The notes under the pieces are model-generated. The model was given only the letters and a program-made list of their open reading frames with translations. It made no database searches and was not told where the DNA came from. Source: Cetorhinus maximus (Eukaryota). From it: a stretch of 64,000 nt of DNA. Position 1 is the stretch's first letter. Each line of letters begins with the position of its first letter. The DNA is taken from positions 60,760,001 to 60,824,000 of the forward strand of contig NC_135898.1 of the NCBI RefSeq assembly GCF_964194155.1, read 5' to 3'. Below are positions 1,942 through 38,769 of the stretch, piece after piece. The translations under genes and the position numbers were made by a program.

Positions 1942-1944
1942 CAT

Positions 1945-12262: not shown

Positions 12263-13165
12263 TCAGAGACACAGTATAAAAGAGCGCGAGGAGAGCGAAG
12301 ACACAGGATAAAGGAGCACGAGGAGAGCGGCAAAGACACAGGTTAAAAAGAGCGTGAAAAGAGCGGCGGAGACAGGATAAAAGGGGGCGAGGAGAGTGGA
12401 GGCACAGGATAAAAGAGCACGAGGAGAGCAGAGATGCAGGATAAAAGAGTGCAAAGAGAGCGGCGGAGACACAGGATAAAAGAACGTGAGGAGAGCAGCA
12501 GAGACACGGGATAAAAGAGTGTGAGGAGAGCGGAGGCACTGGATAGAAGAGTGTGAGGAGAGCAGCGGAGACACAGGATAAAAGAGCGTGAGGAGAGCGG
12601 AGGCACTGGATAAAAGAGCGTGAGGAGAGCAGCGGAGACACAGGATAAAAGAGCATGAGGAGAGCGGAGGCACTGGATAAAAGAGTGTGAGGAGAGCAGC
12701 AGAGACACAGGATAAAAGGGCGCGAGGAGAGTGGAGGCACAGGATAAAAGAGCGCGAGGAGAAGGGAGAGACAGGATAAAGGAGCACGAGGAGAGTGGTG
12801 GAGACACAGGATAAAAGAGCACGAGGAGAGCGATGGAGACGCAGGATAAAAGAGTGTGAAGAGAGCAGAGACACAGGATAAAAGAGCTCAAGGAGAGCGG
12901 CGGAGACACAGGATAAAAGAGCGTGAAGAGAGCGGAAACACAGGATAAAATAGCGCATGGAGAGCAACGGAGACGCAGGATAAAAGCGTGAAGAGAGCAG
13001 AGACACAGGATAAAAGAGTGTGAGGGAAGCAGTGGAGACACAGGATAAAAGAGCGCAAGGAGAATGGCAGAGACACAGCATAAAGGAACATGAGGAGAGT
13101 GGAGACAAAGGATAAAAGAACACGAGGAGAGTGGAGAGACAGGATAAAAGGGCGTGGGGAGAGTG
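12263..13165 (+). repeat. Minisatellite of about 32-35-bp units (GAGACACAGGATAAAAGAGCGTGAGGAGAGCRGCG), roughly 27 copies
   Basis: Direct tandem repeats. A 32+35-bp higher-order dimer is visible near 12470-12735. Explains the L/S/C-rich minus-strand ORFs. Confidence 0.95.
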
Positions 13166-13484
13166 GACCTGCCTGTAAAGAGCAGTGGTGGTGGGAGATA
13201 TAAACCAGCAGTACAGAGGGTGGCCCAGCACACGGAGAGCGGACTTGTGTGAGAAACGCAGCGGCGGCGGGAGATAAAAACCGGCACTAGAGACTTCAAC
13301 CTGTTTCTACTTGTTAGAGCCAAAGTGTGCCATCACAGGTGATAGGTGATTGGTGGGTATCTCTTCCGTGCCTCTTTTGACTGGCCAAGTGGTTTACTTC
13401 AGGAGACATTATTACTGAAGCTGAAGAGTAGAATTAAGAAATTCGCTTTTAAAATATTTAACACCCAAATGGCCTGTTGCATTT

Positions 13485-15317: not shown

Positions 15318-15678
15318 AAGATAAAAGCAAAAAAACTGCGGATACTGGAAATCCAAAACAAAAATAAAAATACCTGGAAAAACTCAGCAGGTCTGACAGC
15401 ATCTGCGGAGAGGAATACAGTTAACGTTTCGAGTCCGTATGACTCTTCAACAGAACTAAGGAAAAATAGAAAAGAGGTGAAATATAAGCTGGTTTAAGGG
15501 GGGAGGGGGGGTGGGACAGGTAGAGTCCTGGTACCTGTCCCACCCCGCCTTAAACCAGCTTATATTTCACCTCTTTTCTATTTTTACTTAGTTCTGTTGA
15601 AGAGTCATACGGACTCTAAACGTTAACTGTGTTCCTCTCCGCAGATGCTGAGTTTTTCCAGGTACTTTTCTTTTTGTT
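15318..15678. mobile_element. Penelope-like element end in inverted (palindromic pLTR) configuration
   Basis: Arms about 15360-15522 and 15532-15678 are reverse complements around a 9-nt spacer. A 14-bp direct repeat CTGGATTTTATAGT flanks it (15304-15317, 15679-15692). Each arm carries a hammerhead-like motif. Confidence 0.75.
15419..15457 (-). ncRNA. Minimal type-I hammerhead-ribozyme-like motif (variant core CUGUUGA)
   Basis: Minus strand: AGUU-CUGUUGA-A-GAGUC-AUACG-GACUC-GAAA-CG-UU-AACU (helix I AGUU/AACU, helix II GAGUC/GACUC). A second copy at 15590-15628 (+) has GAAA changed to TAAA. Confidence 0.6.
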
Positions 15679-17304
15679 CTGGATTTTATAGTCCCCTGCT
15701 GAGCATGTTTTCAGTGGAGGGCACATAAAATATGTCAGGTGCTCAGCCCATCTCCTTCCTGCACACCTTGACCGGTTCTCCATAATATGGGAGGGATGGG
15801 TAAAGCCGCCCACTTTTAGGCCTATTGAAGCCTTTAACTGCCCAATTAAGTGGCAATTAAGGGCCTCAATCTGCCTCATTGCCATAAAACGCTGGGCAGT
15901 GGCAGGCGGGCGTGAGTGAGAAGGCCAATTTTGAAAGAGTTCTTTGAAAATATGGAAAGGAAAGGGGGGGTGGGGGGCTCATCCATGGGGATTGCCCTGT
16001 GCACATTGAGGACCCCCCCCCTCAAAGATGTCACACCCCCCACAACTTTGTTTCACCCCGCCTGGCCTCGGAAACCTGGCCCTCCACCCACCCTCTACCC
16101 CCTCCTTACACTCTCCGGTCCCTCCCTGCCCTAAAAGTCTGGGATTTACTTGTCTCTGGTTACCATGATCTTCATCCCCAGGGCCTCCCTGCAGTCCCAG
16201 TAGCGCCCACTACTGAGTTCTGGCACTGCTGGACCGCAGATTAGCCAGCAGCTCTCGAGGGCTTGGTTTGCTCCCACTGAGGGGCGGAAGTCTGACCCTT
16301 AAACTGATTAGCCCACCCGCAGCGTGTTATTGCTACAGGGCAGGCTTTTTAAAACTCAGTCTGCTTGGGACTGACTTTTCTTCTGTAGGGGCGAACAGTC
16401 CCACTCTCCCCCACCCCCTGTAAAATCCAGTCCATTGAATTAGATACTGAAGCCCTGGACAAATAACATAACGTAAAAAGTGATAATGTGAATCATTGCA
16501 CCAAATGATGAAGATGGTATGGAATTTATCATTATTCATAAGGGGTCTATGTATTATGTTTATTTATGCTTTTATAAAAATAATATAAAACTGTTAAACT
16601 CATGGAAAATGAACCTGTCAGGTCAATGAGAACTGCCGGGACAGAGAGATTAACAGGAAACTGCTCCTTAGCCGCCACAATTGATGACCTAGTTGTGGAA
16701 ATCAGGAACATATTTTCATGGTCCACTAATCACATTTGTGTGCAAACAATTTGATTGTTTTGTATTGAGAATGGTCAAAATCTGCAGAAAGTACCTTGGC
16801 TCACAGACATTGGTAAGTGATGTTAATGGAAAACAATGTTTTTTTTAATTCTTGAAGATATCTCAGTCTTGTGTACAAGTTTCACTCTCACTTGGACAAA
16901 TCACAGCACCATTCCTACTCAGTCAGCTCTCCATTCATATGAATTAGAATTTATATATATTTTGCTGTATGACATTTTTAAATTCCTATCAAACATGTAC
17001 AGAAAGCAGTCTTTTGAACCTGATAGACATTTTTCATATTTTATTTTAACTTTAATTTTACATATGGGCTTTCGGGCAAAGGTTAAAGGAATAAACAGGA
17101 CCACTAGTTTATAATGACTAAATGCTTGAAATTCTGTTTTTATTGCATGGGATTCTAAGACTTTAATCAGGTTTTTGTGGACACATTCTTTGGTTCTACC
17201 CATTCTTTCTGTGAAAATCACTAACCAATTGCCATGCTGAAGAACTGAGTGAAATTGATGGAAGTCATACAACTATATAATTGTATAATATTTTAGGATA
17301 TATT

Positions 17305-18616: not shown

Positions 18617-20040
18617 ATTCTAACTACTTGATGATGGCTGGTTGCTTGTTTATTAGTTCAGATATGGAAGGCTTCTAATGTTTATTAAACTATGGGATTA
18701 TTCCATGATCACTTAGAAAAGGATACAAAAGAGTTTGAAAATACTCTGTATGTTTTGAGAATGGCCTAACAAGAGCAGTGTATATTTTACAGTGGTCTGT
18801 GTGCAGTCTTTTGTGTTGACAACTGCACATTTGACAGTCGGCAGTTACGATGAACTGTTTTGTGCTACTTAATTTCTGCATGACCCCAGGGCTATGGGTG
18901 CAGTTAGCTCTTCCTGCAATTAGTATTCATGGTTACCTAAGCAGAACTAATGCAGCAAATCTCTTTCACTTTGAGTTTTGCATTTCAAGATTTGATGCCT
19001 TTAGGACAATTTGACTTTGCAGACAGGATCTTGGCATTTTCACTTTGCTTCTTCACAGGTTATAAATATTTACTTTGAAGATTAAAGCCTTAAATTAATG
19101 TTTGTGTTTAATATGGAAATCATTGTAACTTTAGAAAAGCTACAGTAGCCTATTAACAATTTAGGATTATACACACTATTTTATACCTCTTAGTAACTGA
19201 TGCTATTCCAATGGAATGTCAATATACTTCACTTTTGTCATGTACATAATAGCTTCACAAGAAAAGATTCATTTTTAATTCAAGATTTGGGATCTGAACA
19301 GCACAAATAACAGTTTAATATTTTAAAATTTTATTTATCATTTTCGGATGCCTGTTGCATGTGCAAGGAGGTAAGATTAGAATTCAGATAGTAAGCTGTT
19401 CCTCAATGGTTTAGCAAGTTTTTTCAGTGAATAACTGAAGCATTATGACCAGACTGAGATTACCTGATTTCAGCCAGTTGATTAGACAGTTGGATTGCAT
19501 TTAAGAGTCCAAAAAACACCCTAAGTAAACAAACAGACTTTGGAGCTACTATCTCAACAGATGTCTTGACTGAAAACATAAAAGCAATGGGAAAAGATTA
19601 AACATTTACACATTATTATCATACTAGGCTACTCTTTCAATAGTGTGAAATGTACCCCACCTTTTTATCCATTACCTGAACTTTTTTTTAACTCAGCTGA
19701 AGACTTTTCCATACTTACGATGATGTTTTACTTGACGGCTTGCCAGTTGGCAGAAGTAACAATCTAGCAAACACATTGGGCAGGTTTTTTCATATACCGG
19801 ACGGGCTCGGTGGGAGCGGGCGTGGAGCCGATCTCTGCCCGCGATTGGCTGCGCACCGCCATTTTATGTAGCCGGGGCAATTAAGGCCAGCCCAGCATAA
19901 ATCGCGGCTCCTGAGATCAGTGGGAAGGGGCAGGCGGTGGCGGGAGGCCAATGTCTGCCGTGTCCAGTGGTGACCCAGGGGCCTATTCAAAAATGGCGCA
20001 GGCAGCCTCCCTAAGGCTGTTACTGATTTCGGTCGGGAGC

Positions 20041-22224
20041 ATGATGGAGGGTGTCCTCGGAGAGCAGGCCAGGCGTGAAGGCAGGTTAGCAGGGCAGTCG
20101 GCACCGAGGTTCTCCGATGAGTGCCTCGCTGCCCTCCTCCAGCAGGTGGCAGCATGCCGCGAGATCCTGGTACCAAGGGATGGGAGGAGGAGGCCCCCCA
20201 CCTAACAAAATGTCCCTGGGAGGAGGTGGTAGTACAGGTCAACTCCCACGATGTGGTGAGATGCACCTGGGGGCAGCACTGCAAGCAGTTTAATGACCTC
20301 CTTTGATCGGGAAGGGTGAGTATCGTGTTGGCATGGGTCACTTAGCATAGCAGTTAGGTTGACCCCACCCGGCCACCACCACCAACTGCCACCACCCCAC
20401 TCCTCCTCCCACAACCTCAGAATTTTGTTCTTGTATTCATTCATTCGTGGAATGTGGGCTTCGCTGGCTGGGCCAACATTTATTGCCCATCCTTTGTTGT
20501 CCGTGAGAAGGTGGTGGTGAGCTGCCTTCTTGAACTGCTACAGTCCATGTGGTGTAGGTACACCCACAGTGCTGTTAGGGGGCGAGTTCCAGGATTTGGA
20601 CCCAGCGACAGTGAAGGGACGGCGAAACATTTCCAAGTCAGGGTGCTGAGTGACTTGGAAGGGACCTTTCAGTTGGTGGTGTTCCCATCTAACTGCTGCC
20701 CTTTTAGGTGGTAGTGTTCGTGGGTTTGGAAGTTCTTAGAGTGTGAGTGGAAAATGTCATGGAGGCAACATCTGGGCAAGGGGGTCAGCCCTGACTGCTT
20801 GGAATGAGTGTATGGCAGCTCCAGTGTCATGAATCGGATGAGCCCTGCAAGGTGTTCCTCAGGTGGGGTTGGCCAGGCTGCAATGGCACTGCAGGTACAG
20901 GGCGGGCTAATCAATGCTCCTCTCTCCTTTCAGGAGAAGACAGCCCACAATAACGCTGAGCGGTTGCGGACTGGCGGAGGGCAGCCCCACCTTCTCACCA
21001 TCACCAGATATGAGCAGGAGGCAGTGGAGCTGGGGAGGCGCCATGCACCCAGGTCAACTGGCTGCCATGATGTTGGGGCGCCACAGGGAGGTAAGAGTGC
21101 CGTGCAGTGGGATCACAATGTCTGTCAGTGCAAACATTCCACTATTGGCTGTGTATTGATTTCAGCATCCAACATGGGATCCCCATTGATAATCTGATCC
21201 AGGTGCCAGGCATGCACACTAACAGCGTAGCAACTCCAACTAATCAAATGTCCTTGTTCTTCCTTTCAGCCTCACCAGAGCATGCCCGGACTCGGGGGCT
21301 GAGGGACCGCTGCTGACCCCTGAGGGTACATTGACGCACCAGCGTCACACCATCTCAGCCAGGCAGGCACCAGCACAGATACCAGCACCTCGGTGGGAAT
21401 AAGATCATCGGCTAGAATCCTGGTGCACAGCAGTGAGGGCACTTCACACTCGCTTGAGGTGCAGACAGAGGCAGAGAATGCCCTGGGCGCCGGCAGTCAG
21501 AGGACTGCTGGGGACTAGGAACATGCTCAGTCAGTGGCTGATGATGTGTCTCTGGAGTTGTCCCTGAGGCAGCAGATGCTGCAAGTCCAGCAGGGTGTGT
21601 GGGAGGATCTGCCGGAGATACATGAGAGAATGCGTGCCATGGTCTCTGTGATGGAGGAGTCCATGCGGAACATTAGCAATGCAATGACCCTCATGGCCGA
21701 GCGCAATGCCTCCTCAATGGAGAGTGTGGCGACTCTCATGGAGAGGCTGCTCCAGGAGAACAATCAGGGCTTCCTAGGAATGCGCTCGGACCTGCAAGCC
21801 CTCACAGCGGCAATGACCTCAGGTGGTCACTGTCAGTGTGGGAGATGGATTGGGCATCCCAGCTAGGTGCCCATCCATCAATGGTGAGCAGGGAGATCCA
21901 AAGCGACATCACATTGGCACACGAGCTGCCTGTTGTCTCTGTGGGCTCCTCTCAGGCCACTCCAGATGGCAGCAGCAGCTCCTCCACCCCTCTGCCAGTG
22001 ACCGTGGCATCTGATGAGGCTGCAGCGACTGGGGAGATACCAGCCGTGCCACTGGCCGCTCCTTCCCAGGTGGGGCCAGCACAGGCTCCACGGGCCAGAG
22101 GATGCCCGCCAAAGTCATCAAGGCCAACAGGTCAGCAGAGTGAGCAGGCTGTCTCCAATGCCGGTGCCAGCGAGGGGGGAGCACCTAGACATAGCACCGC
22201 AAGCGTAAACGTAAAGCACCTTAG
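20041..22224 (+). pseudogene. Harbinger Myb/SANT-like DNA-binding gene, 3 exons (20041-20315, 20934-21090, 21270-22224)
   Basis: Myb/SANT-like segment APRFSDECLAALLQQV…WEEVVVQVNSHDVVRCTWGQHCKQFNDLL. Exon 2 EKTAHNNAERLRTGGGQP. Canonical GT-AG sites (GTGAGT 20316, TTTCAG 20933, GTAAGA 21091, TTTCAG 21269). Basic RKRKRKAP* end. Frameshifts present. Confidence 0.85.
20430..20732 (-). mobile_element. LINE 3' fragment inserted in intron 1 of the Myb gene
   Basis: Reverse complement of the LINE 3' end; same family as 4067-4341. Confidence 0.88.
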
Positions 22225-22547
22225 GCACAACATGGGCTTATTACTGGTGGTTTTCTTTTGCCCCATTTTTAAGTTATATTTAAGTAGGTGTGCTGTTCAA
22301 CACGTTTTAATGTACTTTGATTTCTGTATGCCAAGTTGCAAATCATTAAATGTTTTGGTTCTCAACAAGCCCCTGGGTGCTTCATTAGTTCTGCAGGTGA
22401 AGGGGAACCCATGATATTGTGAGTGACTTGTTTGTCATTGAGCTTTATTGTCAAGGCACATAGTTGCTAACCAAGCAAATGTTGCTCTCAGATATTGAGT
22501 ATTGTGCCTGCAGCCCTGGCATGTGTTGCTGGTTCACCTTTGGTAGG

Positions 22548-23663
22548 CTAGCTGAAGGAGCATTGGACCAAAGCCTCGCGGGTGTCCCTGCCTCCCAGGA
22601 GGTTGCCCAGGTCAGCGTCTATCCCCTCAGCATTCTCCAGAGCGTGCTCGCCCTTGGACTCACTATTGGACTCAGCGTGTGCTGCCAGTGCAGCTGCGTC
22701 TACATCTTCTTCCTTCACTGCATCCCCTCTTTCCAGCGCCAGATTGTGGAGAGTGCAGCATGTAACCACATGGCTCCTATTATACCACTGCTTGGCCTCT
22801 GTTCTTGGATGGCGGAGGGACGTCATGAGCCTTTTGAGGGGATAGCCCTTGTCACCCAGCAGCCATCCATCCAGCCAGGCTGGAGCACTGAAGATCCTTG
22901 GCATCTGGAAGCGTCTGAGGATGTATGCGTCATGGGAGCTGCCTGGGTACCTTGCACAGACTTCCAGAATCTGCGTCCTATTGTCACACACTATCTGCAT
23001 GTTCATGGAATGGAAGCCCTTTCTGTTGACGAAGGCACCGGGCTCACCTGCTGGCACCTTTATGGCCATGTGTGCAGTCTATGGCACTCTGGACGTGGGG
23101 GAAGCCAGCAATCGCTGCAAAACCCCTGACTCGCTCTGCCTGGCTGGCCTCATCCAAGCAGCAGTGAATGAAAGTCAATGCATGCCTGAACAGAACTTCT
23201 GTCACCAGCTTGACACAACTGTGGACAGCTGATTGGGAGACTCCACAAAGATCACCAACTGACCCCTGGAAAGAGCCGGAGGCATAGAAGTTGAGGGCCA
23301 CCATGACCTTCAGCACCACTGGAATGGGCTGTCCACCCACACAGTTGGAGCTGATCTCAGGGCTGATCATCTGACAGATGGAGGTCACTGTCTAATTTGA
23401 GAGGTGGAGCCTCCTTCAGCACTACACCTCAGACATATTGAAGTAGCTGCATTGCCGCCTGTAAACCCTGGCAGCAGAATAGTGTGTCTTCTGTGGCCCC
23501 TTCTGCCTTGGACTTCCTGTTGGCCCTGTGCCCTTTGTGCCTGCATCTGTCCTCCCACAGGTCACTCCCCCGGAGGCTGAATATGGACTCCTGGCCTCCT
23601 CCCCCTTCTGGCCCTCTCTTCATCCTCAGAGGAGGCGCTTCCAGCAGAGACCACAATCCCCAT
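22548..23663 (-). pseudogene. Harbinger DDE transposase pseudogene (family A)
   Basis: ALNFYASGSFQ, GDLCGVSQSAV, QSAIDCTH, NRKGFHSMNMQIVCD, YPGSSHDAYIL, LLGDKGYPL, CTLHNL. The segment with the catalytic Glu (between YNRSHV and VTCCTLHN) is deleted; frameshifted. Confidence 0.92.
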
Positions 23664-24977
23664 TCCCAGGGTAAGGGAAGACTGTCTGATACCGGAAAGG
23701 CCCCAAGTTTTATGATTCCTCCAGAGTCCTGAACTGAAGCCTGTTATTTCTGTCAAAGCAGCTCTGAAATGAAATGAAGTTGTCCTGATCACACAAGCAA
23801 GTAGCAGTAAGTAATAAACTAAAGTTCTAACAATTCGCATTAGCAAGCCCACTCACCCCTCTTATCCCGGCCCTGGATGAGGTTTTTAAAAATGTGGCCT
23901 ACCCGCCTGCCCCTTGTGCCCGTGCGACACCCTGAAAATCCCACGGGCTGTGAAAAATTATATTCAATTGCTGCCTCAAGGGCCTTAACAGGCCCGTTAA
24001 TTAGTGGCGGGGGCGCCTTGGAACTCATAGCACCCGCCTTCCGAAATATCGCGTTATTTTACCCATCGGCGTGTCAGACCCGCCCCCGCACGCCAACTGA
24101 AAAATTCTGCCCATTTTTTTCAAGTAGTTAAATCTTCCAATCACAGCACTGCCATGACTCACCATAATCAACACAGATACAACTCATGCTACAGTATTTC
24201 ATGATAAACTGTAAAGGAGGCAAAACCATTTTAGTTACCTTTTAAACTCTTCCTGCCTCTAATCCAATTAACCCCATATCTACAGGTTAAGGAGGGGACA
24301 ATAGGACAGGGTTCCTCCTTATTATAAACCAGTGACTGCTACTGTAGATGTGCATATGTGTGTGGACAATGGGTGAGAACAGTATTGGATTTGTTTGTGA
24401 TTTTTTGCCCCACTGCACCAAAGTCAAATGGCCTGTTGACTTTCACTGTCAGGGCTCAAACATGGAAGATCACTTGGGCTAGATTCAGGACAGCAGCAAG
24501 GGACTCATTTTATCCCAGCAAAGTGTAAATGTGTTCAGAAAAGGTGAGGAGGGTTGAAAAATTGATGAGGAAAATAAAACTATTTAGACAAAAGAGTAAT
24601 GTGTCACTGAAATCTTTCCAGTTCAAAATGCATAATCATAAAGAAACTTTCAGGAAAAGAAACTGTTCTCTAGATAACATCAGGAATGGAAATCCTGGCT
24701 GATTTTCCTCCTACCCATTTCAGTTAAAAGTTAATTGTACCAACAGCAATGAGATTGAGAAATTCATGTCAGGGATTGCACTTTGTCCCTTCCTGGGTTA
24801 GATGACTTAGTATTCATCATGTCTTTCATTTGCACAAACTTATCATTGCTGGCATCCTCAATGACTGAGATAGGGGTCAAGATTTTTAAGTGGGAGGTGG
24901 AAATCAAGAGAAAGGACTAATCACATGTCCCATTCCCACCTTCTTCTCCATTGGGGGAATGGGATTTTCCAGGAGTG

Positions 24978-27900
24978 CCAAGTTCGAATCTCACCACAGT
25001 AGATGGTGGAGTTTGAATTCAATAAAAATCTGGAATTAAAAGTCTAATGATGACCATGAAACCACTGTCGATTGCTGGAAATTCCCATCTGTTTCACTAA
25101 TGTCCTTTAGGAAAGGAAATCTGCCATCCTTACCTGCTCTGGCCTACATGTGACTTTAGACCCACAGCAATGTGGTTGACTCTTAAATGCCCTCTGAAAT
25201 GGCCTAGGAAACCATTCAGTTGTATCAAACTGTTAAAGAAAAGTCAAAAAGGGATGAAACCGGATGGACCACCCAGCATCAACCTAGGCACTGGAAATGA
25301 CAATGGCAAACTCAGTCCTATCAACCCTGCAAAGTTCTCCTTACTAACATCTGGGGGCTTGTGCCAAAATTGGGAGAGCTGTCTCACAAACTAGTCAAGC
25401 AACAGCTGGACATAGTCATACTCACAGAATCGTACCTTACGGACAATGTCCTAGACACCACCATCACCTTCCCTGGGTATGCCCTGTCTCACTGACAGGA
25501 CAGACCCAGCAGAGGTGGCAGCACAGTGGTATACAGTGGGGAGGGAGTTGCCCTGGAAGTCCTCAACTTTTACTCTGGACCCTAAGAAGTCTCATGGCAT
25601 CAGGTCAAACACGGGAAAGGAAACCTCCTGCTTATTACCATGTACCATCCCCCCTCAGCTGATGAATCAGTGCTCCTCCATATTGAACACTACTTGGAGG
25701 AAGCACTTAGGGTGGCAAAGGCGCAGAATGTACTCTGGATGGGGGATTTCAATGTCCATCACCAAGAGTGGCTCAGTAGCACCACCACAGACTGAGCTGG
25801 CCGAGTCCTAAAGGACATATTTGCTAGACTGGGTCTGCAGCAGGTGGTGAGGGAACCAACAAGAGGGCAGAACATACTTGACCTCATCCATACCAATCTG
25901 CCTGCTGCAGATGCATCTGTCATGACAGTATTGGTAGGAGTGACCACCACCCAGTCGCTGGGGAGACGAAGACCTGCCTTCACATTGAGGATACCCTCCA
26001 TCATGTTGTGTGGCCCTACCACCATACTAAATGGGATAGATTTTGAACAGATCTAGCAACTCAAGACTGAGCATCTATGAGGCACCGTGGGCCACCAGCA
26101 GCGGCTGAATTGCACTCAACCACAATCTGTAGCCTCATGGCCTGGCATATCCCCCACTCTACCATTACCACCAAGCCAAGGGTTCAACCCTGGTTCACTG
26201 AAGAGTTCAGGAGGCATGCCAGGAGCAGCACTCGACTTACCTAAAAATTAGGTGTCAACCTGTTGAAGATATAACACAGGACTACTTGCATGCCAGACAG
26301 CATAAGCAGCAAGTAACAGACAGAGCTTAGTGATTCCACAACCAACGGATCAGATCTAAGCTCTGCAGTCCTGCCACATTCAGTCGTGAATGGTGGTGGA
26401 CAATTAAACAACTCAATGGAGGAGGAGGCTCCACAAATATCCCCATCCTCAATGATGGGGGAGCCCAGCACATCAGTGCAAAAGATAAGGCTGAAGCATT
26501 TGCAACAATCTTCAGCCAGAACTGCCAAGTGGATGATCCATCTCAGCCTCCTCCGGAGGTCTCTAGCATCACAGATGCCAGTCTTCAGTCAATTCGATTC
26601 ATTCATCCATCCATTTTCACACCGCTTCTCCTGGTGAGGGTCACAGTGGCAGTAGGCTGAGCATGGCTGACCAGAATTCCCTTTCCTCAGCCACAGATTC
26701 CAGCTCCTCCTGGGGGATTTCCAGGTGTTCCAAGGCCAGCTGAGAGATGTAATTCCTCCAGCGTGTCCTGGGTTGGCCTGAAGCAGGTGGTGGTCATCCT
26801 TATCAGATGCCCGAACCACCTCAACTGGCTCCTCTCGATCGGAGGAGCAATGACCCTACACTGAGGCTTTCCCAAATTGCTGAACTCCTCACCCTGTCCC
26901 GGCGAGTATGCCCAGCAACCCTGCGGAGAAACCTCATTTCCGCCGTTTGTACCCGCAATCTTCTCCTTTCGGTCATTGCCCACAGTTCATGACCATAGGT
27001 GAGGATGGGGACCTAGATCGACCGGAGAACCGACAGCTTCATCCTAAAACTCAGCTCCCACTTCACCACCACGGACTGGTAGAGCACTCACAGAACTACA
27101 GCTGCCGTACTGATCTGCTGGTCAATCTCACCCTCCCACTGCCATCACTCACAAACAAGATCCTGAGATACTTAAACTCCTCTATTAAGGGAAGCTGCTC
27201 CCCCTCACCTGGAGAGAGCAACCCACTCTTTTCTAGGAGAGAACCAAGACCTCAGATGTGGAGGTGCTGATCCACATCCCAGCCGTGTCACACTCAGCAG
27301 TGAAATTTTCAAGTGCGCGCTGGAGATCACAGTTGGAGGAGACAAGAAGCGCAACATCATCTGCAATTAGCAGAGATGCCACCCTCAAGCCCCCAAACTG
27401 GATACTCTCCATACCTCGGCTGTGCCTTGACATCCTGTCCATGAAAATCATGAACAGGAGGCAAGACGCACCCTTGGCAGAGTCCAACGCCCACCTTGAA
27501 CGAATGTGACTTAATGCGAAAATGCAGACACAACTCTCGCTCCGCAACTAGAGGGGCCTGATAGCACGCACAAGCGGCACCAGCACCTTATATTCCTGCA
27601 GCACCTCCCACAAAATATCCTGAGGAACACGGCTGTATGCCTTCTCCAGGTCTACAAAACAGAGGTAGACCGGATTAGCAAATTCCCACGAACCCTCAAA
27701 TAGCCATGAGAAGGCAAAGAGCTGGTCGACTGTTCCACAGACAGGGCAGATTCCGCATTGTTCCTCCTGAATCTGAGGTTCGACGAACAGACATAACTCC
27801 AGCACTCTGACATAGGCTTTCCCGGGGAGGCTGAAGGGTGTGATTCCTCTATAATTGGAACACACCCTCTGGTCCCCTTTCTTAAAGATGGGGAACCGCC

Positions 27901-29682
27901 ACCCCAGTTTGCCAATCCAGTGGTACTATCCCCACCTTTCACGAAACATTGAAGAGGCGTGTTAACCATGACACTCCAACATTGTCCAGCGCCTTCAACA
28001 TCTCTGGACGAATCTTGTCCACCCCTGCTGCCTTATCGCTACAGAGGCCCTTGACCAGCGACCACAGCAAAAGTAATAGATCCGATCTCACTGGAGGGTT
28101 CTGGTTCACTCCACATGATATCAAGAAATAGCTGAAGGCACTGGATACTGCAAAGGCTATAGGCCCTGACAATATTCCAGCAATAGTACTAAAGGCTTGT
28201 GCTCCATAACTTGCCGCACCCTAGCCAAACTGTTCCAGTACAGCTACAACACTGGCATCTACCCGACAATGTGGAAAATTTCCCAGGTATGTCCCGTACA
28301 CATAAAGCAGGACAAATCTGGTGATTACCGCCCCATCAGTCTACTCTTGATCAGTGATGGAAGGGGTCATCAACAGTGCTATCAAGCGGCATTTGCTTAG
28401 CAATAACCTGTTCATTGACACTCAGTTTGGGTTCTGCCAGGGCCACTCAACTCCTGACCTCATTACAGCCTTGGTTCAAACATGGACAAAAGAGCTGAAC
28501 TCAAAAAGTGAGGTGAGACTGACTGCCCTTGACATCAAGGCAGCATCTAACCACGTGTGACATCAAGGAGCCCTAGCAAAACTGGAGTCAATGGAAATCA
28601 GGGGGAAAACTCTCCGCTGGTTGGAGTCATACCTAACACAAAGGAAGATGTTTGTCATTGTTGGAGGTCAATCATCTCAATTCCAGGACATCGGTGCAGG
28701 AGTTCTTCAGGGTAGTGTGCTCAGTCCAACCATCTTCAGCTGCTTCATGAATGGCCTTCCTTCCATAAGGTCAGAAGTGGGGATGTTTGCTGATGATTGC
28801 ACAATGTTCAGCACCATTTGCGACTCCTCAGATACTGAAGCAGTCCATGTCCAAAGGCAGCAAGACCTGGACAATATCCAAGCTTGGGCTGACAAGTAGC
28901 AAGCAACATTTGCACCACACAAGTGCCAGGCAATGATCATCTCCAAGAAGAGAGAAGCTAACCATTGCCGCTTGACATTGAATGGCATTACCATCAATGA
29001 ATTCTCCACTATCAACATCCTGGGGATTACCATTGACCAGAAATTGAACTGGACTAGCCATATAAATACTGTGGCTACAAGAGTAGGTCAGGGGCTAGGA
29101 ATCCTATAGCAAGCAACTCACCTCCTGACTCCCCAAAGTCCGACCGTCATCTACAAGGCACAAGTCAGGAGTGCGATGGAATACACTCCACTTGCCTGGA
29201 TGAGTGCAGCTCCAACAACACTCAAGAATCTTGACACCATCCAGCACAAGTCAGCATGCTTGATTGGCACCCCAGCCACAAATATTCATTCCTTCTACCA
29301 CAGACAAACAGTGGCAGCAGTGTGTGCCATCTACACGATGCACTGCAGGAACTCACCAAGGCTCCTTAGACTGCACCTTCCAAACCCACAGCCACCACCA
29401 TCTAGAAGGACAAGGGCAACAGACACATGTGAACACCATCACCTGGAAGTACCCCTCCGAGCCACTTTCTTGGAAATATATCGCTGTTCCTTCACTGTCA
29501 CTGGGTCAAAATCCAGGAACTCCCTGCCTAACAGCACTGTGGGTGTACCTACACCACATGGACTGCAGCGGTTCAAGAAAGTAGCTCACCACCACCATCT
29601 TCTCAAGGGCAATTAGGGATGGGCAATAAATGCTTGCCTAGCTAGCGATGTCCACATCCCGTAAATGAATAACAAAAAAAAG
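24978..29682 (+). mobile_element. Near-full-length single-ORF CR1-group LINE (APE endonuclease + RT), decayed
   Basis: APE motifs NIWGL, DIVILTES, GDFN, LDLI, SDH. RT motifs YRPISLL, QFGF, DIKAA, QGSVLSP, FADD. Ends AATAAA…poly(A). Starts at a B-box (GTTCGAATC). Split by an RTE at 26602-28104. Confidence 0.92.
26602..28104 (-). mobile_element. 5'-truncated RTE-clade LINE, Rex3/Expander-like, nested in the CR1-group LINE
   Basis: KAAGVDKIRPEMLKALD, CSNYRGIT..SLPGKAY, IQEEQCG, WEFANPVYLCFVDLEKAY, LLIADD, IERSQLRWFGHL. 3' tail (GATG)n-like (ttcatccatccat on +). TTCA on both sides. Confidence 0.88.
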
Positions 29683-30230
29683 AAAGCAGCCTGTAGAAGG
29701 GCTTGTTGCTGGAGGTGGGCTCAGTCCAGATTGGGCAAGTTAAAAGGCCCGTCTCCACTTCCAAAAAACTTCAACCTCGTGCTTCTGATCAGCTGGTCAT
29801 CTATATAGAGTTAAACCTTCTAACCACTTTGAACCACAATTCACTCTAACCACTCACCCCTTCACCCCCAACCCCTCTCCTCACCCTCTCACCCACACCC
29901 CCTCAATGCCTCACAGTCCTAAGCCATTATCCACTTTATGAACAGAATTCACAAGCCATATTATAATAGTTGGGAGCCACTGAATAGCCCAGAAAACTGC
30001 CTGAGGAAACAAACAGACTTTTCAAACCAGTTCTATAAATAGAGTCAAGTACTTGTAAAATGATTAGGCAATTTGATTGTAGTCAAGAGCCCATAAAGCT
30101 GTCCAAGTAAACAAACAGACTTCAGAACTGCTACCTCAACAGATGTCTAGGCTGAGTGCATAAAAGCAATGGGGAAAGATTAAACATTCACTTAATATTA
30201 TCACACTAGTCTATTCTTTCAATAGTGTGA

Positions 30231-31896
30231 GAAGGGGAAGCTGGAGTGAGATCAAGTTGCCCCGCACCCCTCTCGCGTACACACTTTTGGAGGCAAACTA
30301 TGATGTCAGCGATGGAGTTCAGTCCACTCAGCAGTGCAGGACCGGTGTCCTTGAACAAGGTCCCAATGGTGGCCGCCATCCTACCAGTGTTGATCTCAGT
30401 GTGTTGGCATGCCGGCACTATCATTTCAGACTGAAGGCAGTTGGACACCTCCGTTGTGCCTTGCAATCTGAGGAGTGCAGCAGGTATCCCTTCCTGATGT
30501 TTCTAAGCTTGCCTTTGCAGCTCCAGCAATTGAGGTATGACCAAGTCCAGAGGCTCCCCATCTGACCCAGACTCAGCAGTTTTCTGGCCTCCAGCAGTCC
30601 TCCAAATGCCGGAAACCTGGGAAGTCCCCACCATCACCTGCTGTGGATCAGACAGTGCAATGTGCTCACCAGATTGTGACCCCAAGGCTACTCTAAATCT
30701 AGGTCCCACTGAGGTATGTGCCTCTGCACTGGTGGATGGTGTGGGTTAGTGCTGTGACAGATTTTCAAAGAGGGTCTAATCAGATTCTTCTTCTGAGGTT
30801 TCTTCAGAGCTTGAGTTGAGGACGTGGATGATGGACCTCCTCAGCTGTTTCCCAGATGTGCCTGCGAATGCAAGGAGAGATAACTAATGCATGGCAGGGG
30901 ATTGTGGAACAGTGGAAGTGACTCAAAGCATGGCTGTCTGATGGATGTTGTACTGCTGTATCCTCACTTCATAGAGTACCACTGACCTCACTTTCTGCAC
31001 AGGAATGGTCCAGATTATTGCTGGACAGCTGGATGACTCTATTTTCAAAGTCCATGAGGACCATGAGTTCAGGCATCCCTCCACCAGTCTGTGACTGCTC
31101 CCTTTTGCCAGCTTATCCTGCATGAATACTGATGGAGAGGATGCAGGATGCCTGTAGGGCCAGGTGATAAGGATGCCTGGCATGTGTGGGTGGTGAGTGG
31201 TGCCATGGACAGGATGAGGACATGATCCAAAGGGAAAATGAAGGTGTGTGTGAGAGTGAATGGTGATGTCCCTTAAACTGGCAGTGAATGAGATTCCTGT
31301 GGATGTGTAATGGGTTTGTGATTGTGTGGGTTGAGAGGTATGGGAAGCTGGAGTTGCAGTTATGAGAAGAGTGACTTACCCTGGCGGAATGGAGGAGATC
31401 ATTCACCCTCTTTTGGTGCTGGGTGGCTGTCCTCTTTTGCAGGGCGTTGGTGCTGACCACTGCTGCCACTGCCTTGCATGCAGGATTGGTGACCTTTCTT
31501 GCTGGCCTTCGCACAGAGCGGGGGTAGAGATTATTGCGCCAGGCCTCCACTGTGTCTAAGTAGGTGCTAAAGAGAGGCATCGCTAAATCTGGGGGCAGCA
31601 TGTTTCCTCTCTTTGGTAGCCATCAGTTCCCAGCAGCTCCCTATTCCTTGAAGAATGCTAGCTCTTTGCAGTGGTGGCCTTTAAATCTGGTGCCCAGTTT
31701 ACTGAATGCCTGAGGAGATGGCGGGGTGGGCGAATCAGAGGATGTCCCGCCAGGCTGGTGTATTTCTCAGGAATGCATAATGAATGAGGTGGGAATGGGA
31801 TGATACGGCGTGAAAACCCGCCATTGCAGCCAGCGGGTAAAATGCCCTTTTTCCCGCCGCTACCGCATTTCGTGCAAATTTGGGGTGATTCTGCCC
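30231..31896 (-). mobile_element. Harbinger family B, Myb-side half (left part deleted) with Myb/SANT-like pseudogene on the minus strand
   Basis: Colinear with 39010-40332. LYPRSVRRPARKVTNPACKAVAAVVSTNALQKRTATQHQKRVNDLL and QDKLAKGS. Ends …GATTCTGCCC followed by ATT. Confidence 0.87.
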
Positions 31897-31971
31897 ATTG
31901 TTTAAGGGGTAATTATGTCTTCCAATCACAGCATTGCCAGAATTCACCAAAACAAACACAGATACAACTCA

Positions 31972-32068
31972 AAAAATAAAAAAATACCTGGAAAAACTCA
32001 GCAGGTCTGGCAGCATCGGCGGAGAAGAGTACAGTTGACGTTTCGAGTCCTCATGACCCTTCAACAGA
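31972..32068 (-). mobile_element. ~100-bp Penelope-like end carrying a hammerhead-like motif
   Basis: Similar to 15360-15456. 8-bp TSD ACAACTCA (31964-31971, 32069-32076); the empty site is seen in the paralog near 24178. Motif GUU-CUGUUGA-A-GGGUC-AUGAG-GACUC-GAAA-CG-UC-AAC. Confidence 0.75.
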
Positions 32069-33456
32069 ACAACTCATGCCAAAGTATTTCATTATCAACT
32101 TTAAAGGCGGCAAAATCATTTTAATTACCCGTTAAAGTGTTCCCACCTCCAATCCATGGTTCATGCCTCCGAGCAGCTGGTGTAAAAACCTGACAGCTGC
32201 TAAAATCCAGCTGCATGAAAATAAAAAAAAACTTACCAGAGATGGACTCTCAATGAGCCTAGAATGCTGTTCTCCTTCATAAGAGCAGATGGGTTCCAGG
32301 TCCCATTCCCTCCTCTGCCCTCGTGAAAATGGCTGAGGGCGAAAACAGGCTGGACCTTTGGGTGCGCTGCCCAGTGGCCATTTTTTCTGGCCCTGCCTTT
32401 GTTTGGTCCTGATTGGGATCATGAAAATCTGGTCCTGGGAGCTTGATGAAATCATCTGTATCCAGTTCACAGCAATGCCTGAGTGGGAACAAAGAAACTA
32501 ACCAGAATTATTCTCATTATTTCGGACAGTTCTGAATATCAGCAGCAGTTATTTCTTGTACCAAATTATTTTTGCACATAAGGGTAAGGGTATATAAATA
32601 TTTAATGTTTATTAAATATCTATTTACTTAAATACTTAGGTATTTAAATAAATAAAATTTATTTATTTGAAGTAATGACAGCAGCCATATAAAATCTGGG
32701 GAGATCCTCAGAGATGAAAGTGTGACAGTAAAAGATATCAAAGATCTAATGGAGAAATAGTAACAGTATAAAATAAAGCAGGGGGGCAATGTACAGAACA
32801 GAGCAAGCAGTAGGTGTGGTAAAATGTGCAGTTTGACTACATGCATGGATTTAACTTAATCCATTTAAGATCAGCTCTTTTTCTAGTTTATTTGTTTTCA
32901 AGCCTTTAAATTTCAAACATAAATGAATTACAGTCACTGTAGAAAAAGTTCAATTTTTTATATGGGTGAGGGTACATGTGTAAGGCACAGTTCAGGTGGT
33001 TGAAAGGCAGATTTTATTTAGCGTTCATTTACAATGCAGATGATGCCAGCTCCTGGGCATCCTATCCAATTGCATTTATCACATTAATGAACCTACAATA
33101 TATGCATAATAAATAATGCACACAATGTTATGTAGAATTTTCTTTCAGAGAACTACATAAACCATGCTGGACTTAAATTCAGAACTGGTACATCCAGAAA
33201 AAGACAGTTTTACCAAACAGGAATGAAAATCATAGTGGCAAAAATTAAAAGAGCAGGGAGGCTATATTTGGGACTGGAATTAGACCCCTCCACTTACTCA
33301 TGTCCTCTAAAATATGGAAGGACATTACAGAACACTTGATACCATTTCATACACGAAACAGATTGGGAATGACACCCAGAAGTGGTAGAATTACCTTAAG
33401 TGGAGAATCAATTGGCTTGTGTTAAGTGTAGGTTGGCACGAACTGGAGGCACTTAC

Positions 33457-33985: not shown

Positions 33986-36876
33986 GTAAGACAACCTTGC
34001 CTTTCACAGTAAAGAAAATGTTAAAAAAAACATGTAATATACAAACATGATCTGCTTATCAGCTGGTGAATTGCTTGAACAACAGTTATTAATATACTGC
34101 TGCCTATCAGCCACTCTTCCTTATTTTTTCTCTGAAAGTACCCTTTTGGAAGCTAGGCAGCTTTACTAATACCATCAGAAATAAACTCAATAAAACTGCA
34201 ACAGTAGCAACCAATAGAATCTGAAAGGAGCCTGAGCTCTGTCATTTAAACTGATGAGAGTTTTAACAAAAGCGGGCTAAATTTTAGAGACAATTTAAAA
34301 TATTTGATAAAATTTGTAGATTAATATTCACATGATGCTTCAGCAATGACTATTCAGCAAACAGGTCTTAGAACAACCACTTTCTCTGTGGGGTAAGTAA
34401 CTCCATACAGCAAAATAGGTGAATAATTCAGTGTGTGGCGAGATGACGGGCACCAAATTCTTCCATGCAACAATGCTCCAAGTGGCATTAACCAGTACCA
34501 ATTTCAAAGATTTTAAAGCTTAGAAACTGCTCCATTTCTTTCTGCTATAGCGATAAAGCCCCCGTTGTACTGATTTTTGCAACTTCCCCCCATGCCCGAT
34601 GTGTTATTGGCAAAGCGTACTGATACTACAACTGGCTAACAAAAATATCCTCATTTAGAGTCTCCCACTTAAACTATCATAAAGTCTCCTGCAACTGCTG
34701 GAGGGCCATCATCCTTTTGAGATATGCTATTTTTGTAAAGAAGGAAAATAATTGATGGCTGACCTTTTAGGGATGTTCGTCTGAAATCTAAATGTCTTTT
34801 TATTCAAAGTGTGAACAATTGCTATAATTTCTTTTCTTAGCCACCTTATTCCAGCAGCAACAAAGATGGCAGTGGCAAGAAATCTTAAATATTTTTTAAT
34901 AGAAACATAGTGTTGCAGGTAATGATGAATCTAGGGCATACATTAAAAAGAAATGACCTGGTTATTGGCTTGTAATAGTGTTTAATGCCAGCTGAATTGG
35001 TTTCAGTCAGTCAGACTTTACTCAGCTGCTGAAAATCATTTCAACTTAGAAATGAGTGCTTTCAGTAATGCATACAAATGTGGGAGCGAAAATGTCAACC
35101 TTGGGCAATAGGTTTTGCAGTAGTAGCTGTTTCTGTAGTTAACATACAGAACCACCAAAATGTAGATATGAGCACAAAAATATTGTTATAACTATTGGCT
35201 TTGCAAAAATTATTTGGAATTTGTTGTATGAGTTGAGATATCATTAAGAGTTGCTTCAGTCTCTTCATATAGTGATGGTGAATTGTTTCCAATGAAGTAC
35301 TTGAAGATCAACTTTACCATAATAACTCAGAGAGGCTTTGAGGTCCCTTTCTATTATAATAGATTTTTGTGTCCATTTGAGCAAAGCTGCAGGGGTCAGA
35401 AGTGTTATCTAAGTTTTTTAGAGACTAGAGCAAAGCTACTCTATTTTCCTTCCATTTGTTAAAAAAAATATTTATTTGCATATCTTACTTATTCCCTGTT
35501 ACAAGATTAACTAACCAAAACCTGCAATGTCTTGGAATCTTTCAATTTGATCACTTCTTTTTACGTGTAAGTAAAGTAGATGCATTTAGCAATACACAAG
35601 AATAAAGGCCATTTGGAATGAGAAAGGGCCCCTTGGTCCATTGAGCCCATACTTACCACACTGGGCGAAATTTTCCATGCCGGCTGGCGTCAGGCGTGTT
35701 CGGTGGCGTAAGCAGACAATATGGCACAATCAGTTTCATGGCGTGAAACCAGTTTGCGATTGTCTGCTCAGCCCACCGATGGCGGGCCGTGTTTCCCACC
35801 ATTGGATGGTCGGGAACCTCACTGTAAAACATCAGTATATCTTTATTAGGCCTGTCCACTGGAATCTTCCCCTCCCCCACCCCAGCTGGATCATCCGTCC
35901 ACGTCGGCGGGAAAACACCCTGGCGTGTTTCACAACTGCACATAAAAGGTGTGTACTTGGCGGCCTGCACTTTGAGGGGAACTTGGAGGTGAGTACATAG
36001 TAACATTGTACAGCACTTGCCAGGGTCGCATGTTGGACTTCAAGCTTGAGGGGCATTGGGGGGTTGTGGTTAAGGGCAGCCCTGCCATTGGAGGTGACTT
36101 GTGGTGGTGGTGGTGGTGGTGTTGGTGGGGGGGGGGGGGTCAGGGCAAGGGCAGCCCTGTTGTTGAATATAGCGCACAAGCATTCAGGGTGGGGGGGTTG
36201 GGTGGGCGAGGGATGTGGCCCTGCATTAGGGGATACTGTAAAAAGTGACCATTCCTCTGCAGCTCAGACAGTTCAGACACAGCCACATTGATATAATTAA
36301 TGTTGGACTTCTAGCTTATCTGCCCACTCAAGCAACGCAGAAGCATCAGAGTGGCACCAAGCGCTCCAAAGCTTTTCACTGCCCCCTTACCTGCTCCCCC
36401 ACCCCCGCTCCTTGTCCCCAGCACAGACTGCAAAGGCATGAGCATTTTAGTGGACTGCAGAACAGTTGGATGACTGCACATGTTGTACAGTCTCCTTGCT
36501 AAAGCTGGCCATGGAGCAGTCACTGCTGGAGGTGCTCATAGCATCTTGTAATGTCAGCATCCCGGTTTGGACCAGTCTCTCCCATGGTTCAAGCTAACAG
36601 GGCAGCCTTGCAGCATGGGTTAGGAGAAAGCCTGCACCTGAGCTGAGAGCACAGCATGCAGTCCAGTGGGCAAATCTGCCACCAATCAGTCAGGTGGAGT
36701 GGGGCAGAGGTGGTGGGTTTTCAGGCAGCGCACTAATCTCTGGCCATCCAAGTGGTGGCCAGCACTCTCCAGGAATCGTTAAGGAGCCTTCACACTTAAC
36801 CAGGACAGGTTCTTAGTACACCCATGCTAACCACACGTGTCTCACTTCCATCCTGCAGGAGGATATCATCAGGATC

Positions 36877-38060
36877 ATGGAGCTTGGTGAACTAGCTGTA
36901 TGCCCGATGGCCCACAGAGAGCGAAGACGATGGGGGAGAAAGTGATTGAGGCTCCTGGCTGTGCAGAGGCAGCAGCAGTAACCTCAAGAAGAGCAGCTGG
37001 GGCTCCTACATACGCCGCCAAAGAGCCACAGTGACCCGTCACTGGTCAGCGCTTAGCAACACCCATTCCTGCAGATGACTGAGAACCAGTATCACCGAAG
37101 ACTGTGCATGTCTAGGGAACTGGTCGTTCAATCTGCCAGCTACTGGAGAATTTGGCACATGGGGACATGGAGGGTATCCACTGCCAGTGGCCCTGAAAGT
37201 GACCGCAGCACTCAATTTCTATGCCAGTGGCTCCGTTCGGGGCTCCACAGGTGACCTCTGTGGGATCTCACAAGCCTCCACCCACAAATGCATCCATGAG
37301 GTCACGGATGCCATCTTCACGAGGGCACACTACTTTGTCCATTTCACCTGGGACCAGGACAGCCAGGATGCAAGAGCGATTGGATTTGCCCAGATCTTGG
37401 GTTTCCCACAGGTGCAGGGTGCTATCGACTGTACTCACATGGTGCTCAGATCTCTGTCGCAACACATGATGAACTACATCAACTGCAAAGGTTTCCATTC
37501 ACTGAATGTGCAGCTGGTGTGCGACCACCACAAACGCATCCTGCAGGTCTGCACATGGTTTCCAGGGAGCGTGCACGATGCTTACATCCTCAGTCAGTCA
37601 CAGATCCCTGAAGTCTTCCAGGGTCTACAGAAGCTGCAGGGATGGATCCTTGGGGACAAGGGCTACCCACTGATGACACCCGTGCGGCGGCCTCAGACTG
37701 CAGCAGAGTGATGGTATAATGAGGCTCATGCTGCAGCTTGCAACTCGTTGGAGCAGACCATCGGGATGTTGAAGGTGAAGTTCTGGTGCCTGGACCGGTC
37801 AGATGGAGCCCTGAAATATAGTCCACAGAGGGTGTCATGCATCGTCGTCATCTGCTAAGCCTTTTACAACCTGGCACTGCAACGGGTAGGCGAGCTGGCT
37901 GAGGAGATGTAGGAACTGGAGGTCTCCTCTGATGAGAAAGACGCTGATGGGGATGAGGGTGAGGAGTCCTTGGAGGCAACGATGACGGGGATGAGGCCCT
38001 CGCACTGGCTAGATGAGGCAGGCTGCTAGACTCATGGAGGATGATGATGACATGCAGTGA
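36877..38060 (+). pseudogene. Harbinger DDE transposase pseudogene (family B) with a probable 5'-UTR intron (35989-36858)
   Basis: ALNFYASGS, QGAIDCTH, CKGFHSLNVQLVCD, FPGSVHDAYIL, ILGDKGYP, LEQTIGMLK. TATA-like CATAAAAG at 35941, donor GAG|GTGAGT, acceptor CCTGCAG. Stops and frameshifts present. Confidence 0.9.
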
Positions 38061-38769
38061 GGTGACCCCATAGATCCTCACATTGCATCTGTGAATGTTT
38101 GACTCCAGTCTGGCTTATGGCAGGGCGCATACCCTCTGTGATAATGCTCCTGTCATGCAGATGCAGTGGAGGCCCTAATAGTCACTCGATTGCAGGTGGT
38201 TGACATGCAGTGAGGACACTCCATAGATCTTCACATAGCCTCTGAAAATGTCTGACTCCTGTTTGGCTGACGGCAGCTCGCTTGCGCTCTGTGATCAGGG
38301 TGATATCATAGAGACGCAGCCATGAAACCTTAGAAGCATCTGATCCTTTGTCTGCCTTCAGCACCTGAGTCCTTCAGGAGCACAGCATCACTGGTCACAG
38401 ATACTGAATAGATTGGGACCAGCTCCACCTTAAAGGTGCTGAGAGCACACAGAGAGAATAAGAGAACTCTGTGGTGCCTGCCCACTACATTCTGGCAGCA
38501 ATGACAAGCACCGCCGAGGTGCAGGCATCAGTAATGTGTCCAGGAAGTGTGAGGCTGGACCATCATTTTTGTCTGAAGGCTGCACAAAGCACAGGGAAGA
38601 TGCCCTGGACTGAGACAGCTGCCTTTATCTTGTGCAAAAAGGTTTCACATCTGAGTGACAAGAACACTGCTCATCAGAACAAGGAGCCTTGGGCAGGGAG
38701 ACATACTTGGGAGTATATTGACATTAGTGAACAGTATGTACAAGTGATTAACACCCATGCTCAGGCTAT

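What the first reader, a model, noticed from the sequence alone, without database searches (positions are those of the whole stretch)
19775..31899. Two different Harbinger families inserted at the homologous nucleotide of two copies of one host repeat
Seen: family A (ends 24112) and family B (ends 31896) are both followed by ATT, and then 20 vs 21 nt after the TIR by TCTTCCAATCACAGCA…ACACAGATACAACTCA. Upstream host sequence also matches (19480-19650 vs 30062-30230). The transposons have different subterminal sequences and opposite gene order at that end (transposase side vs Myb side), so one duplication cannot explain it. Inference: independent targeting of the same site (AAACAC-ATT-KTTT), a sequence-specific landing pad inside a multicopy repeat.
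Basis: partly seen in the sequence, partly recalled or inferred. Interest (0 to 1): 0.72.

Follow-up and report, generated by a model that had tools for sequence, protein, structure and literature searches.

The report
Harbinger hotspot inside an older Harbinger
Several cut-and-paste jumping genes landed independently on the same three bases of an older jumping-gene relic in about one copy in eleven, likely because that spot is the relic's best match to the short landing motif these elements prefer everywhere in the genome, so this is a real but ordinary hotspot and not a dedicated landing pad.

Summary
Harbinger A (19778-24112, ATT on both sides) and the right part of Harbinger B (30229-31896, then ATT) sit at the same nucleotide of two copies of one repeat. 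That repeat (H) is itself an old non-autonomous Harbinger of about 1.3 kb. The site is a true hotspot: 13 of 141 other H copies carry a Harbinger there, from several families and in both orientations; the next-best position has 4.

It is not a dedicated landing pad. A and B ends are spread genome-wide (325 and 8,847 pattern matches), and 0 of 80 such loci fetched contain H. A motif learned from 102 of their flanks (ARASAC-NWN-GTSTYT) ranks this site first of 1,322 H positions and predicts 32-49% of core insertions there; 43-52% were observed. The half-sites match the published zebrafish Harbinger3_DR target. A second, LTR-like repeat with the same motif is also hit, mostly in the variant with both half-sites. 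The scan reached the same reading once before in another genome (e1-9058401). Verdict: a new instance of known target preference.

The parts
19479..19777 (+). Old non-autonomous Harbinger H, copy 1, left piece (H positions -299..0), ending in the target half-site AAACAC and the left ATT duplication
   Evidence: 89.8% to the H consensus; junction read
19778..24112 (.). Harbinger family A, full length (4.3 kb), degenerate, TIRs GGGCAG.., ATT/ATT duplication
   Evidence: a 4.2-kb relative (71-75%) sits at the same H site in L266
20041..20202 (+). Start of A's likely Myb/SANT-like gene (PRFSD stretch), broken
   Evidence: translation; tblastx to the B counterpart; no Pfam hit
20425..20732 (.). LINE 3' end fragment inserted in A
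   Evidence: 77-85% to other LINE ends in the window
22548..23337 (-). A transposase, broken
   Evidence: Pfam DDE_Tnp_4 E=1.3e-14 for 22548-23078; tblastx extends to 23337
24113..24266 (+). H copy 1, right piece (right ATT duplication, then H to +151); truncated
   Evidence: 91.6% to the H consensus over +10..+151
24873..24976 (+). H copy 2, left end with TIR remnant
   Evidence: 73% to H -902..-803
24977..29680 (+). LINE (endonuclease and reverse transcriptase type) inserted in H copy 2, itself interrupted at about 26604-28105; ends approximate
   Evidence: 84-86% to the copy at 44995-48154, which has RVT_1 hits and a sub-cutoff Exo_endo_phos hit
29710..30230 (+). H copy 2, positions -755..-130; ends at the deletion junction
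   Evidence: 77-83% to the H consensus
30229..31896 (.). Harbinger family B, right 1.67 kb only (Myb side; likely Myb-like gene starts near 31623 on -); left part deleted
   Evidence: 71% to the full B relative at 35663-40333; 78% to the 4.2-kb B relative L267; junction
31897..32435 (+). H copy 2, right piece from the ATT duplication to the right TIR, interrupted at 31972-32063 by a 92-bp short repeat
   Evidence: 84% and 80% to the H consensus; the insert matches 15360-15456 at 90%

Best explanation
Two different Harbinger DNA transposons sit at the same ATT of two copies of an older non-autonomous Harbinger (H), 13 of 141 further H copies carry Harbingers there, and this likely happens because the 15 bases AAACAC-ATT-GTTTAA are H's best match to the palindromic target motif that these Harbingers prefer across the genome. 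Shown: the hotspot, the independence of the insertions, the genome-wide motif ARASAC-NWN-GTSTYT, and that the motif alone ranks the site first. Inferred: the transposase complex (transposase with its Myb-like partner) reads about six bases on each side of the 3-base cut, so any repeat that carries a near-optimal 15-mer presents the same good target hundreds of times and becomes a hotspot. H was dead and dispersed first; younger families then hit it over a long period. Later decay (a LINE, a short repeat and a deletion in copy 2; truncation of copy 1) gave the present layout.
For: Hotspot: 13 of 141 non-window copies are occupied, 121 empty, 7 broken or otherwise interrupted; 3 of 43 in the one set chosen without regard to the site. 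Inserts fall into an A group (6 with window A counted, both orientations), a B group (2 with window B counted, both orientations), a pair sharing one end, and singletons. A matrix from 102 A/B flanks outside H ranks the site 1st of 1,322 positions in 10 of 12 settings (2nd and 3rd in the other two) and in 199 of 200 bootstraps. The 2nd-ranked position (-164) has 2 insertions; ten other used positions score above background (p=3e-6). Predicted share of core insertions 32-49%; observed 13 of 25 as computed (52%, CI 31-72%), 43-48% with 14-17 other junctions. H's own flanks show the same motif (131 half-sites). In a second repeat, 12 of 15 resolved occupied copies have G after ATT against 19 of 96 empty ones. 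The zebrafish Harbinger3_DR target is AAACACCWGGTCTTT (PMC3016246, passage).
Against: The matrix comes from two family groups, while several inserts belong to other families whose motifs were not measured. Some used positions score poorly: +39 ranks 630, -818 ranks 214, and +19 ranks 848 (left out of the test together with +99 and three doubtful junctions, because the local sequence departs from the consensus). Position -256 has 4 insertions but ranks only 24-28. Most H copies were picked by similarity around the site, which inflates its share. In the second repeat the preferred variant is also the older one (75% against 81% pairwise identity), so age confounds that test. No biochemical test was possible.
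Confidence: 0.85

Rival explanations
1. A dedicated safe-haven system: A, B and related families are steered to H by something beyond the 15-mer, such as Myb-like protein binding to H's subterminal DNA or a small-RNA or chromatin mark on H.
For: Site occupancy of about 9% is very high for one nucleotide; the observed share is at the upper end of the prediction; -256 is used more than its rank suggests; four long, gene-bearing elements sit at the site (window A, window B, L266, L267).
Against: 0 of 80 fetched A/B loci contain H. Of the first 100 of 150 AAACACATT-plus-TIR junctions, three H-like candidates were fetched and one was H, while about 27 (by eye) lie in an unrelated repeat. The plain motif accounts for the peak within error.
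Confidence: 0.08
2. One ancestral insertion at this site was spread by duplication or by transposition of a composite H-plus-insert element, with later replacement of the insert.
For: The two window copies lie only about 600 bp apart in the same orientation; copy 1 is the first or second best match for copy 2's segments.
Against: The two copies share 6 differences from consensus in 310 positions, against a median of 3 and a maximum of 7 with other copies; copy 1 is simply close to consensus (92%). Inserts differ in family, length (about 0.15-9 kb) and orientation. 121 of 141 copies are empty.
Confidence: 0.04
3. Chance coincidence in a genome dense with Harbingers.
For: The window holds many Harbinger-type ends, and one B end pattern has 8,847 matches.
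Against: 13 of 25 core junctions at one of 835 positions, p=5e-32 under uniform insertion.
Confidence: 0.01

Closest known systems
Harbinger3_DR of zebrafish (PMC3016246, passage read; the primary paper is not held)
   Same: Long, nearly palindromic target; its half-sites AAACAC and AAAGAC (reverse complement of GTCTTT) fit the motif ARASAC measured here; 3-bp duplication.
   Different: The duplication here is a loose NWN (ATT at this site), not CWG. The preference measured on old flanks is weak (at most 0.7 bit per position), is shared by several divergent families, and produces hotspots inside other repeats.
Tourist-like MITE multimers and nests in rice and maize (PMC5172404, passages); mPing 9-bp insertion preference (PMC2836001, passages)
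   Same: PIF/Harbinger-family elements inserting independently into other MITEs, with some MITE families targeted by many others.
   Different: Vertebrate genome; full-length gene-bearing elements also use the site; the hotspot is mapped to one nucleotide and explained by a measured motif.
Target-specific transposons such as Dada, Pokey, R2 and Tx1-clade LINEs in other repeats (recalled; no call)
   Same: Repeated insertion at one nucleotide of a multicopy sequence.
   Different: Those elements are found mostly at their target; A and B are found almost entirely elsewhere.

Membership tests
PIF/Harbinger transposons (elements A and B) | DDE transposase of the Harbinger type | tested here: met
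   DDE_Tnp_4 above cutoff for A and for the full B relative at 37079-37711; the window B fragment has lost it; L267 has it
PIF/Harbinger transposons (elements A and B) | Second gene with a Myb/SANT-like domain | tested here: inconclusive
   Myb_DNA-bind_5 E=0.013, below cutoff, for 1 of 3 broken frames tried (the full B relative); none for A or the B fragment; A and B frames align by tblastx
PIF/Harbinger transposons (elements A and B) | Short terminal inverted repeats | tested here: met
   GGGCAG.. ends
PIF/Harbinger transposons (elements A and B) | 3-bp target-site duplication | tested here: met
   ATT/ATT for A; 19 of 23 two-ended relatives exact, among pairs that had to match at 2 of 3 bases; 26 of 49 exact in pairs picked without regard to the duplication
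Non-autonomous Harbinger / Tourist-like MITE (host H) | Harbinger-type TIRs with conserved ends | tested here: met
   16-bp inverted ends in 57 left and 74 right ends
Non-autonomous Harbinger / Tourist-like MITE (host H) | 3-bp duplication and Harbinger flank motif | tested here: met
   12 of 36 exact, 25 of 36 with at most one mismatch; flanks read ARASAC
Non-autonomous Harbinger / Tourist-like MITE (host H) | No transposase of its own | tested here: met
   No tblastn hit of two transposase fragments to the H consensus; other coding capacity was not tested
Non-autonomous Harbinger / Tourist-like MITE (host H) | A cognate autonomous element | not tested
   Not searched for
Target-specific transposons (Dada, Pokey, R2, Tx1 type; features recalled) | Most copies lie at one target sequence | tested here: not met
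   0 of 80 fetched A/B loci contain H; no H context among the first 100 of 325 and first 100 of 8,847 ends, read by eye
Harbinger3_DR-type long target consensus | Half-sites AAACAC / GTCTTT | tested here: met
   Modal bases A, A/G, A, G/C, A, C at -9..-4 in 102 flanks; published motif from PMC3016246
Harbinger3_DR-type long target consensus | CWG duplication | tested here: not met
   Duplication is loose: A/T/C, then A/T, then T/A/G
Harbinger3_DR-type long target consensus | Preference shown in a transposition assay | not testable with these tools
   All copies seen are old and broken

The most novel reading that the evidence does not exclude
The Harbinger target-reading code (half-site ARASAC) is conserved across divergent families of this genome and zebrafish Harbinger3_DR, and on top of it the old element H draws in younger Harbingers by a second cue, making dead family members an evolved safe haven for a DNA transposon superfamily.
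Probability: 0.08. Interest if true: 0.65.

Novelty: new member of a known kind. Interest (0 to 1): 0.3.

Why it matters
As it stands it is a clean, quantified example that a modest Harbinger target motif gives about 9% occupancy at one nucleotide of a multicopy repeat. It shows that shared Harbinger insertion sites are poor evidence of common descent, and that several divergent vertebrate Harbinger families use the motif published for zebrafish Harbinger3_DR. That bears on which protein part reads the target, a useful point for anyone building site-biased DNA transposon tools. It would matter much more if a cue beyond sequence were shown.

Tried and rejected
Composite element or duplication: rejected. 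Host-specific targeting by A or B: rejected. A first junction scan with a loose TIR pattern gave many false hits in H's simple-repeat zone and was replaced by a stricter one. One search (exact left junction) gave only 3 matches, of which 2 were H and 1 (L041) was not; too tight to count with. Copy number: at least 442-474 candidates; recapture (8 of 43) suggests a few hundred, but the estimate is biased low and was not pursued. Pfam did not confirm the Myb domain above cutoff. [quoted passage not shown] Literature: seven searches found no paper on this hotspot or on Harbinger target motifs in cartilaginous fish; the library lacks most subscription journals and Repbase reports, so absence is weak. 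Papers seen as passages only: PMC2836001, PMC3016246, PMC4561436, PMC9179366, PMC5172404, PMC3014272; no supplements were opened. No structure, complex or read-mapping job was run, as none bears on the question.
Full report
Observation. The junctions are as described: element A spans 19778-24112 between AAACAC-ATT and ATT; element B ends at 31896 before ATT; the shared downstream motifs start 20 and 21 nt after the TIRs; and the upstream pieces 19479-19648 and 30061-30230 are 81.8% identical. A has a Harbinger-type transposase on the minus strand at its right end (DDE_Tnp_4, E=1.3e-14) and a likely Myb-like gene on the plus strand at its left; the Myb domain did not reach Pfam's cutoff in any of three frames tried. 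A and a full-length B relative in the window (35663-40333) share only short DNA patches of 69-70% and transposase stretches of 48-59% identity, so they are distinct families. Both have convergent genes, so the 'opposite gene order' is opposite orientation. B in the window is only the right 1.67 kb: a deletion with a 2-base overlap took out its left part, the left ATT and about 130 bp of the host.

What the host repeat is. Searches of the own genome (4.0 Gb) with each flank gave 442 and 474 candidates on many contigs. The copies extend to about 1.2-1.35 kb with sharp ends, 16-bp inverted repeats of Harbinger type, a 3-bp duplication (12 of 36 exact, 25 of 36 within one mismatch) and Harbinger-like flanks. 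No transposase match was found in the consensus. Copies are a median 86% identical to consensus in the core. It is thus an old non-autonomous Harbinger, here called H. Window copy 1 is partial (19479-24266); copy 2 is full length (24873-32435) with a LINE, the deletion, B and a 92-bp repeat inside it. The two copies share 6 differences from consensus in 310 positions, against a median of 3 and a maximum of 7 for other pairs, so they are not a recent duplication. Why they lie 600 bp apart is unexplained; an old local hop is possible.

The hotspot. One search examined 149 candidate loci: 121 empty, 12 with a TIR at the site, 10 not covered, 6 without H. I removed the 6, removed L270 (fetched because it was occupied), merged L017 with L067 (two ends of one insertion), and moved L015 and L110 to occupied after longer fetches showed both junctions. 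This gives 13 of 141 occupied (9%, CI 5-15%), 121 empty and 7 broken or otherwise interrupted. In the one set chosen by a motif 20-40 nt downstream, without regard to the site, 3 of the 43 non-window copies are occupied. The other sets were chosen by similarity around the site or an intact left half-site (host-like rows picked by eye from the first 100 of 126). Other Harbinger junctions in the H core number 14, or 17 with three doubtful ones: four at -256, two at -164, the rest single. Inserts at the site range from about 0.15 to 9 kb and fall into an A group, a B group, a pair sharing one end and singletons; both the A and B groups occur in both orientations. This confirms independent, repeated insertion.

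Not a dedicated target. One A end pattern has 325 matches and one B-group end pattern 8,847. None of the first 100 rows of each shows H context by eye, and none of 80 fetched loci (the first rows, contigs C1-C2) contains H. The junction AAACACATT plus TIR occurs 150 times; of the first 100 rows, three H-like candidates were fetched and one was H, while about 27 by eye share another repeat's context.

Mechanism. From 79 of the 80 loci (one gave no match in range) plus 23 second ends, 102 half-sites give the motif A, A/G, A, G/C, A, C followed by a loose A/T-rich triplet, at most 0.7 bit per position. Applied as a palindrome to the H consensus, it ranks the site first of 1,322 positions (7.5-9.1 bits with both families pooled); first in 10 of 12 settings including A-only and B-only matrices, and in 199 of 200 bootstraps. 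Position -164 ranks second and has two insertions. Ten other used positions score above background (p=3e-6), though +39 and -818 score poorly; +19, +99 and three doubtful junctions were left out, and +19 ranked 848. The matrix predicts 32% of core insertions at the site, or 49% after a rough correction for flank decay; the observed share is 52% as computed with 12 others (CI 31-72%), or 43-48% with 14-17 others. No extra cue is needed. That the transposase complex reads these bases directly is inference.

A second test. The other repeat seen is about 0.9 kb with TG..CA ends and, in one copy read, a 4-bp duplication, so it is probably a solo LTR (observed only). Its 17-mer ending in AAACACATT has 784 matches; 3 of the first 100 are occupied, 19 continue with G, 77 with another base (mostly CCTT) and 1 is unrelated (counted by eye). 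Of 21 occupied copies examined, 15 had a resolvable far end: 12 continue with G, 2 with A and 1 with C. The G variants score 5.1-10.8 bits against 2.7 for the CCTT variant. This fits the motif model, but the G variant is also older (75% against 81% pairwise identity).

Comparison with what is known. A review states that zebrafish Harbinger3_DR integrates into AAACACCWGGTCTTT (PMC3016246, passage); its half-sites AAACAC and AAAGAC fit the motif measured here, while the CWG core does not. mPing has a 9-bp preference (PMC2836001, passage). MITEs inserting independently into other MITEs, some families being targeted by many others, is described for rice and maize (PMC5172404, passage). Harbingers were not detected in elephant shark in one survey, which asked for other cartilaginous fish to be checked (PMC9179366, passage); other notes of this scan call this genome shark-like, which I did not test. 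Seven literature searches found no account of this hotspot. Truly target-specific elements (Dada, Pokey, R2, Tx1; recalled) sit mostly at their target, which A and B do not.

Verdict. A real single-nucleotide hotspot, explained by the known long target preference of Harbingers acting on a multicopy repeat. New member of a known kind; interest 0.3.

Noticed in passing
L214-L263 (G000, many contigs): A second repeat of about 0.9 kb with TG..CA ends, probably a solo LTR, carries the same AAACAC-ATT motif and is a Harbinger hotspot too, mostly in its variant with G after ATT.
   Followed up: partly
49 two-ended Harbinger MITEs in loci and window: Single mismatches between the two target duplications fall at the middle base in 11 of 18 cases (6 expected), but in old H copies only 2 of 13 do; inconclusive. 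Lead taken from e1-9981490; staggered cutting within the duplication is proposed for mPing (PMC4561436, passages).
   Followed up: partly
window 24266-24873: Two copies of a family with only some hundreds of copies in 4 Gb lie about 600 bp apart in the same orientation without sign of recent duplication; perhaps an old local hop.
   Followed up: partly
H positions -256 and -164 (L026, L075, L119, L126; L049, L077): Secondary hotspots in H; -256 is used more often than its motif rank (24-28) suggests.
   Followed up: partly
L087-L133 (rows with AACCTGGC context): A second, more diverged H subfamily shares the site (ATT-ATTTAA) and is also hit (L132, L270).
   Followed up: partly
window 1880-1990: Two Harbinger-type ends abut back to back at 1942/1945, separated by only 2-3 bases.
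   Followed up: no
window 12261-13167: A tandem array of short A/G-rich units lies inside or beside the B-like element at about 9100-13400.
   Followed up: no
window 15349-15686: A 340-bp imperfect palindrome made of the same short repeat that is inserted at 31972-32063.
   Followed up: no
window 44328-48154: A LINE copy is interrupted near its 5' end by a 610-bp Harbinger MITE (44384-44994).
   Followed up: no
L265 (G000:C1:156016200-156026000): A 9-kb nest at the H site holding at least three A-like MITEs and an inverted piece of another H copy.
   Followed up: no
L225-L228 (G000:C1:41.71-41.75 Mb) and C4:90.2-90.6 Mb rows: Near-identical repeat contexts recur at 8-10 kb and about 130 kb spacing, pointing to tandem or segmental duplications.
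   Followed up: no
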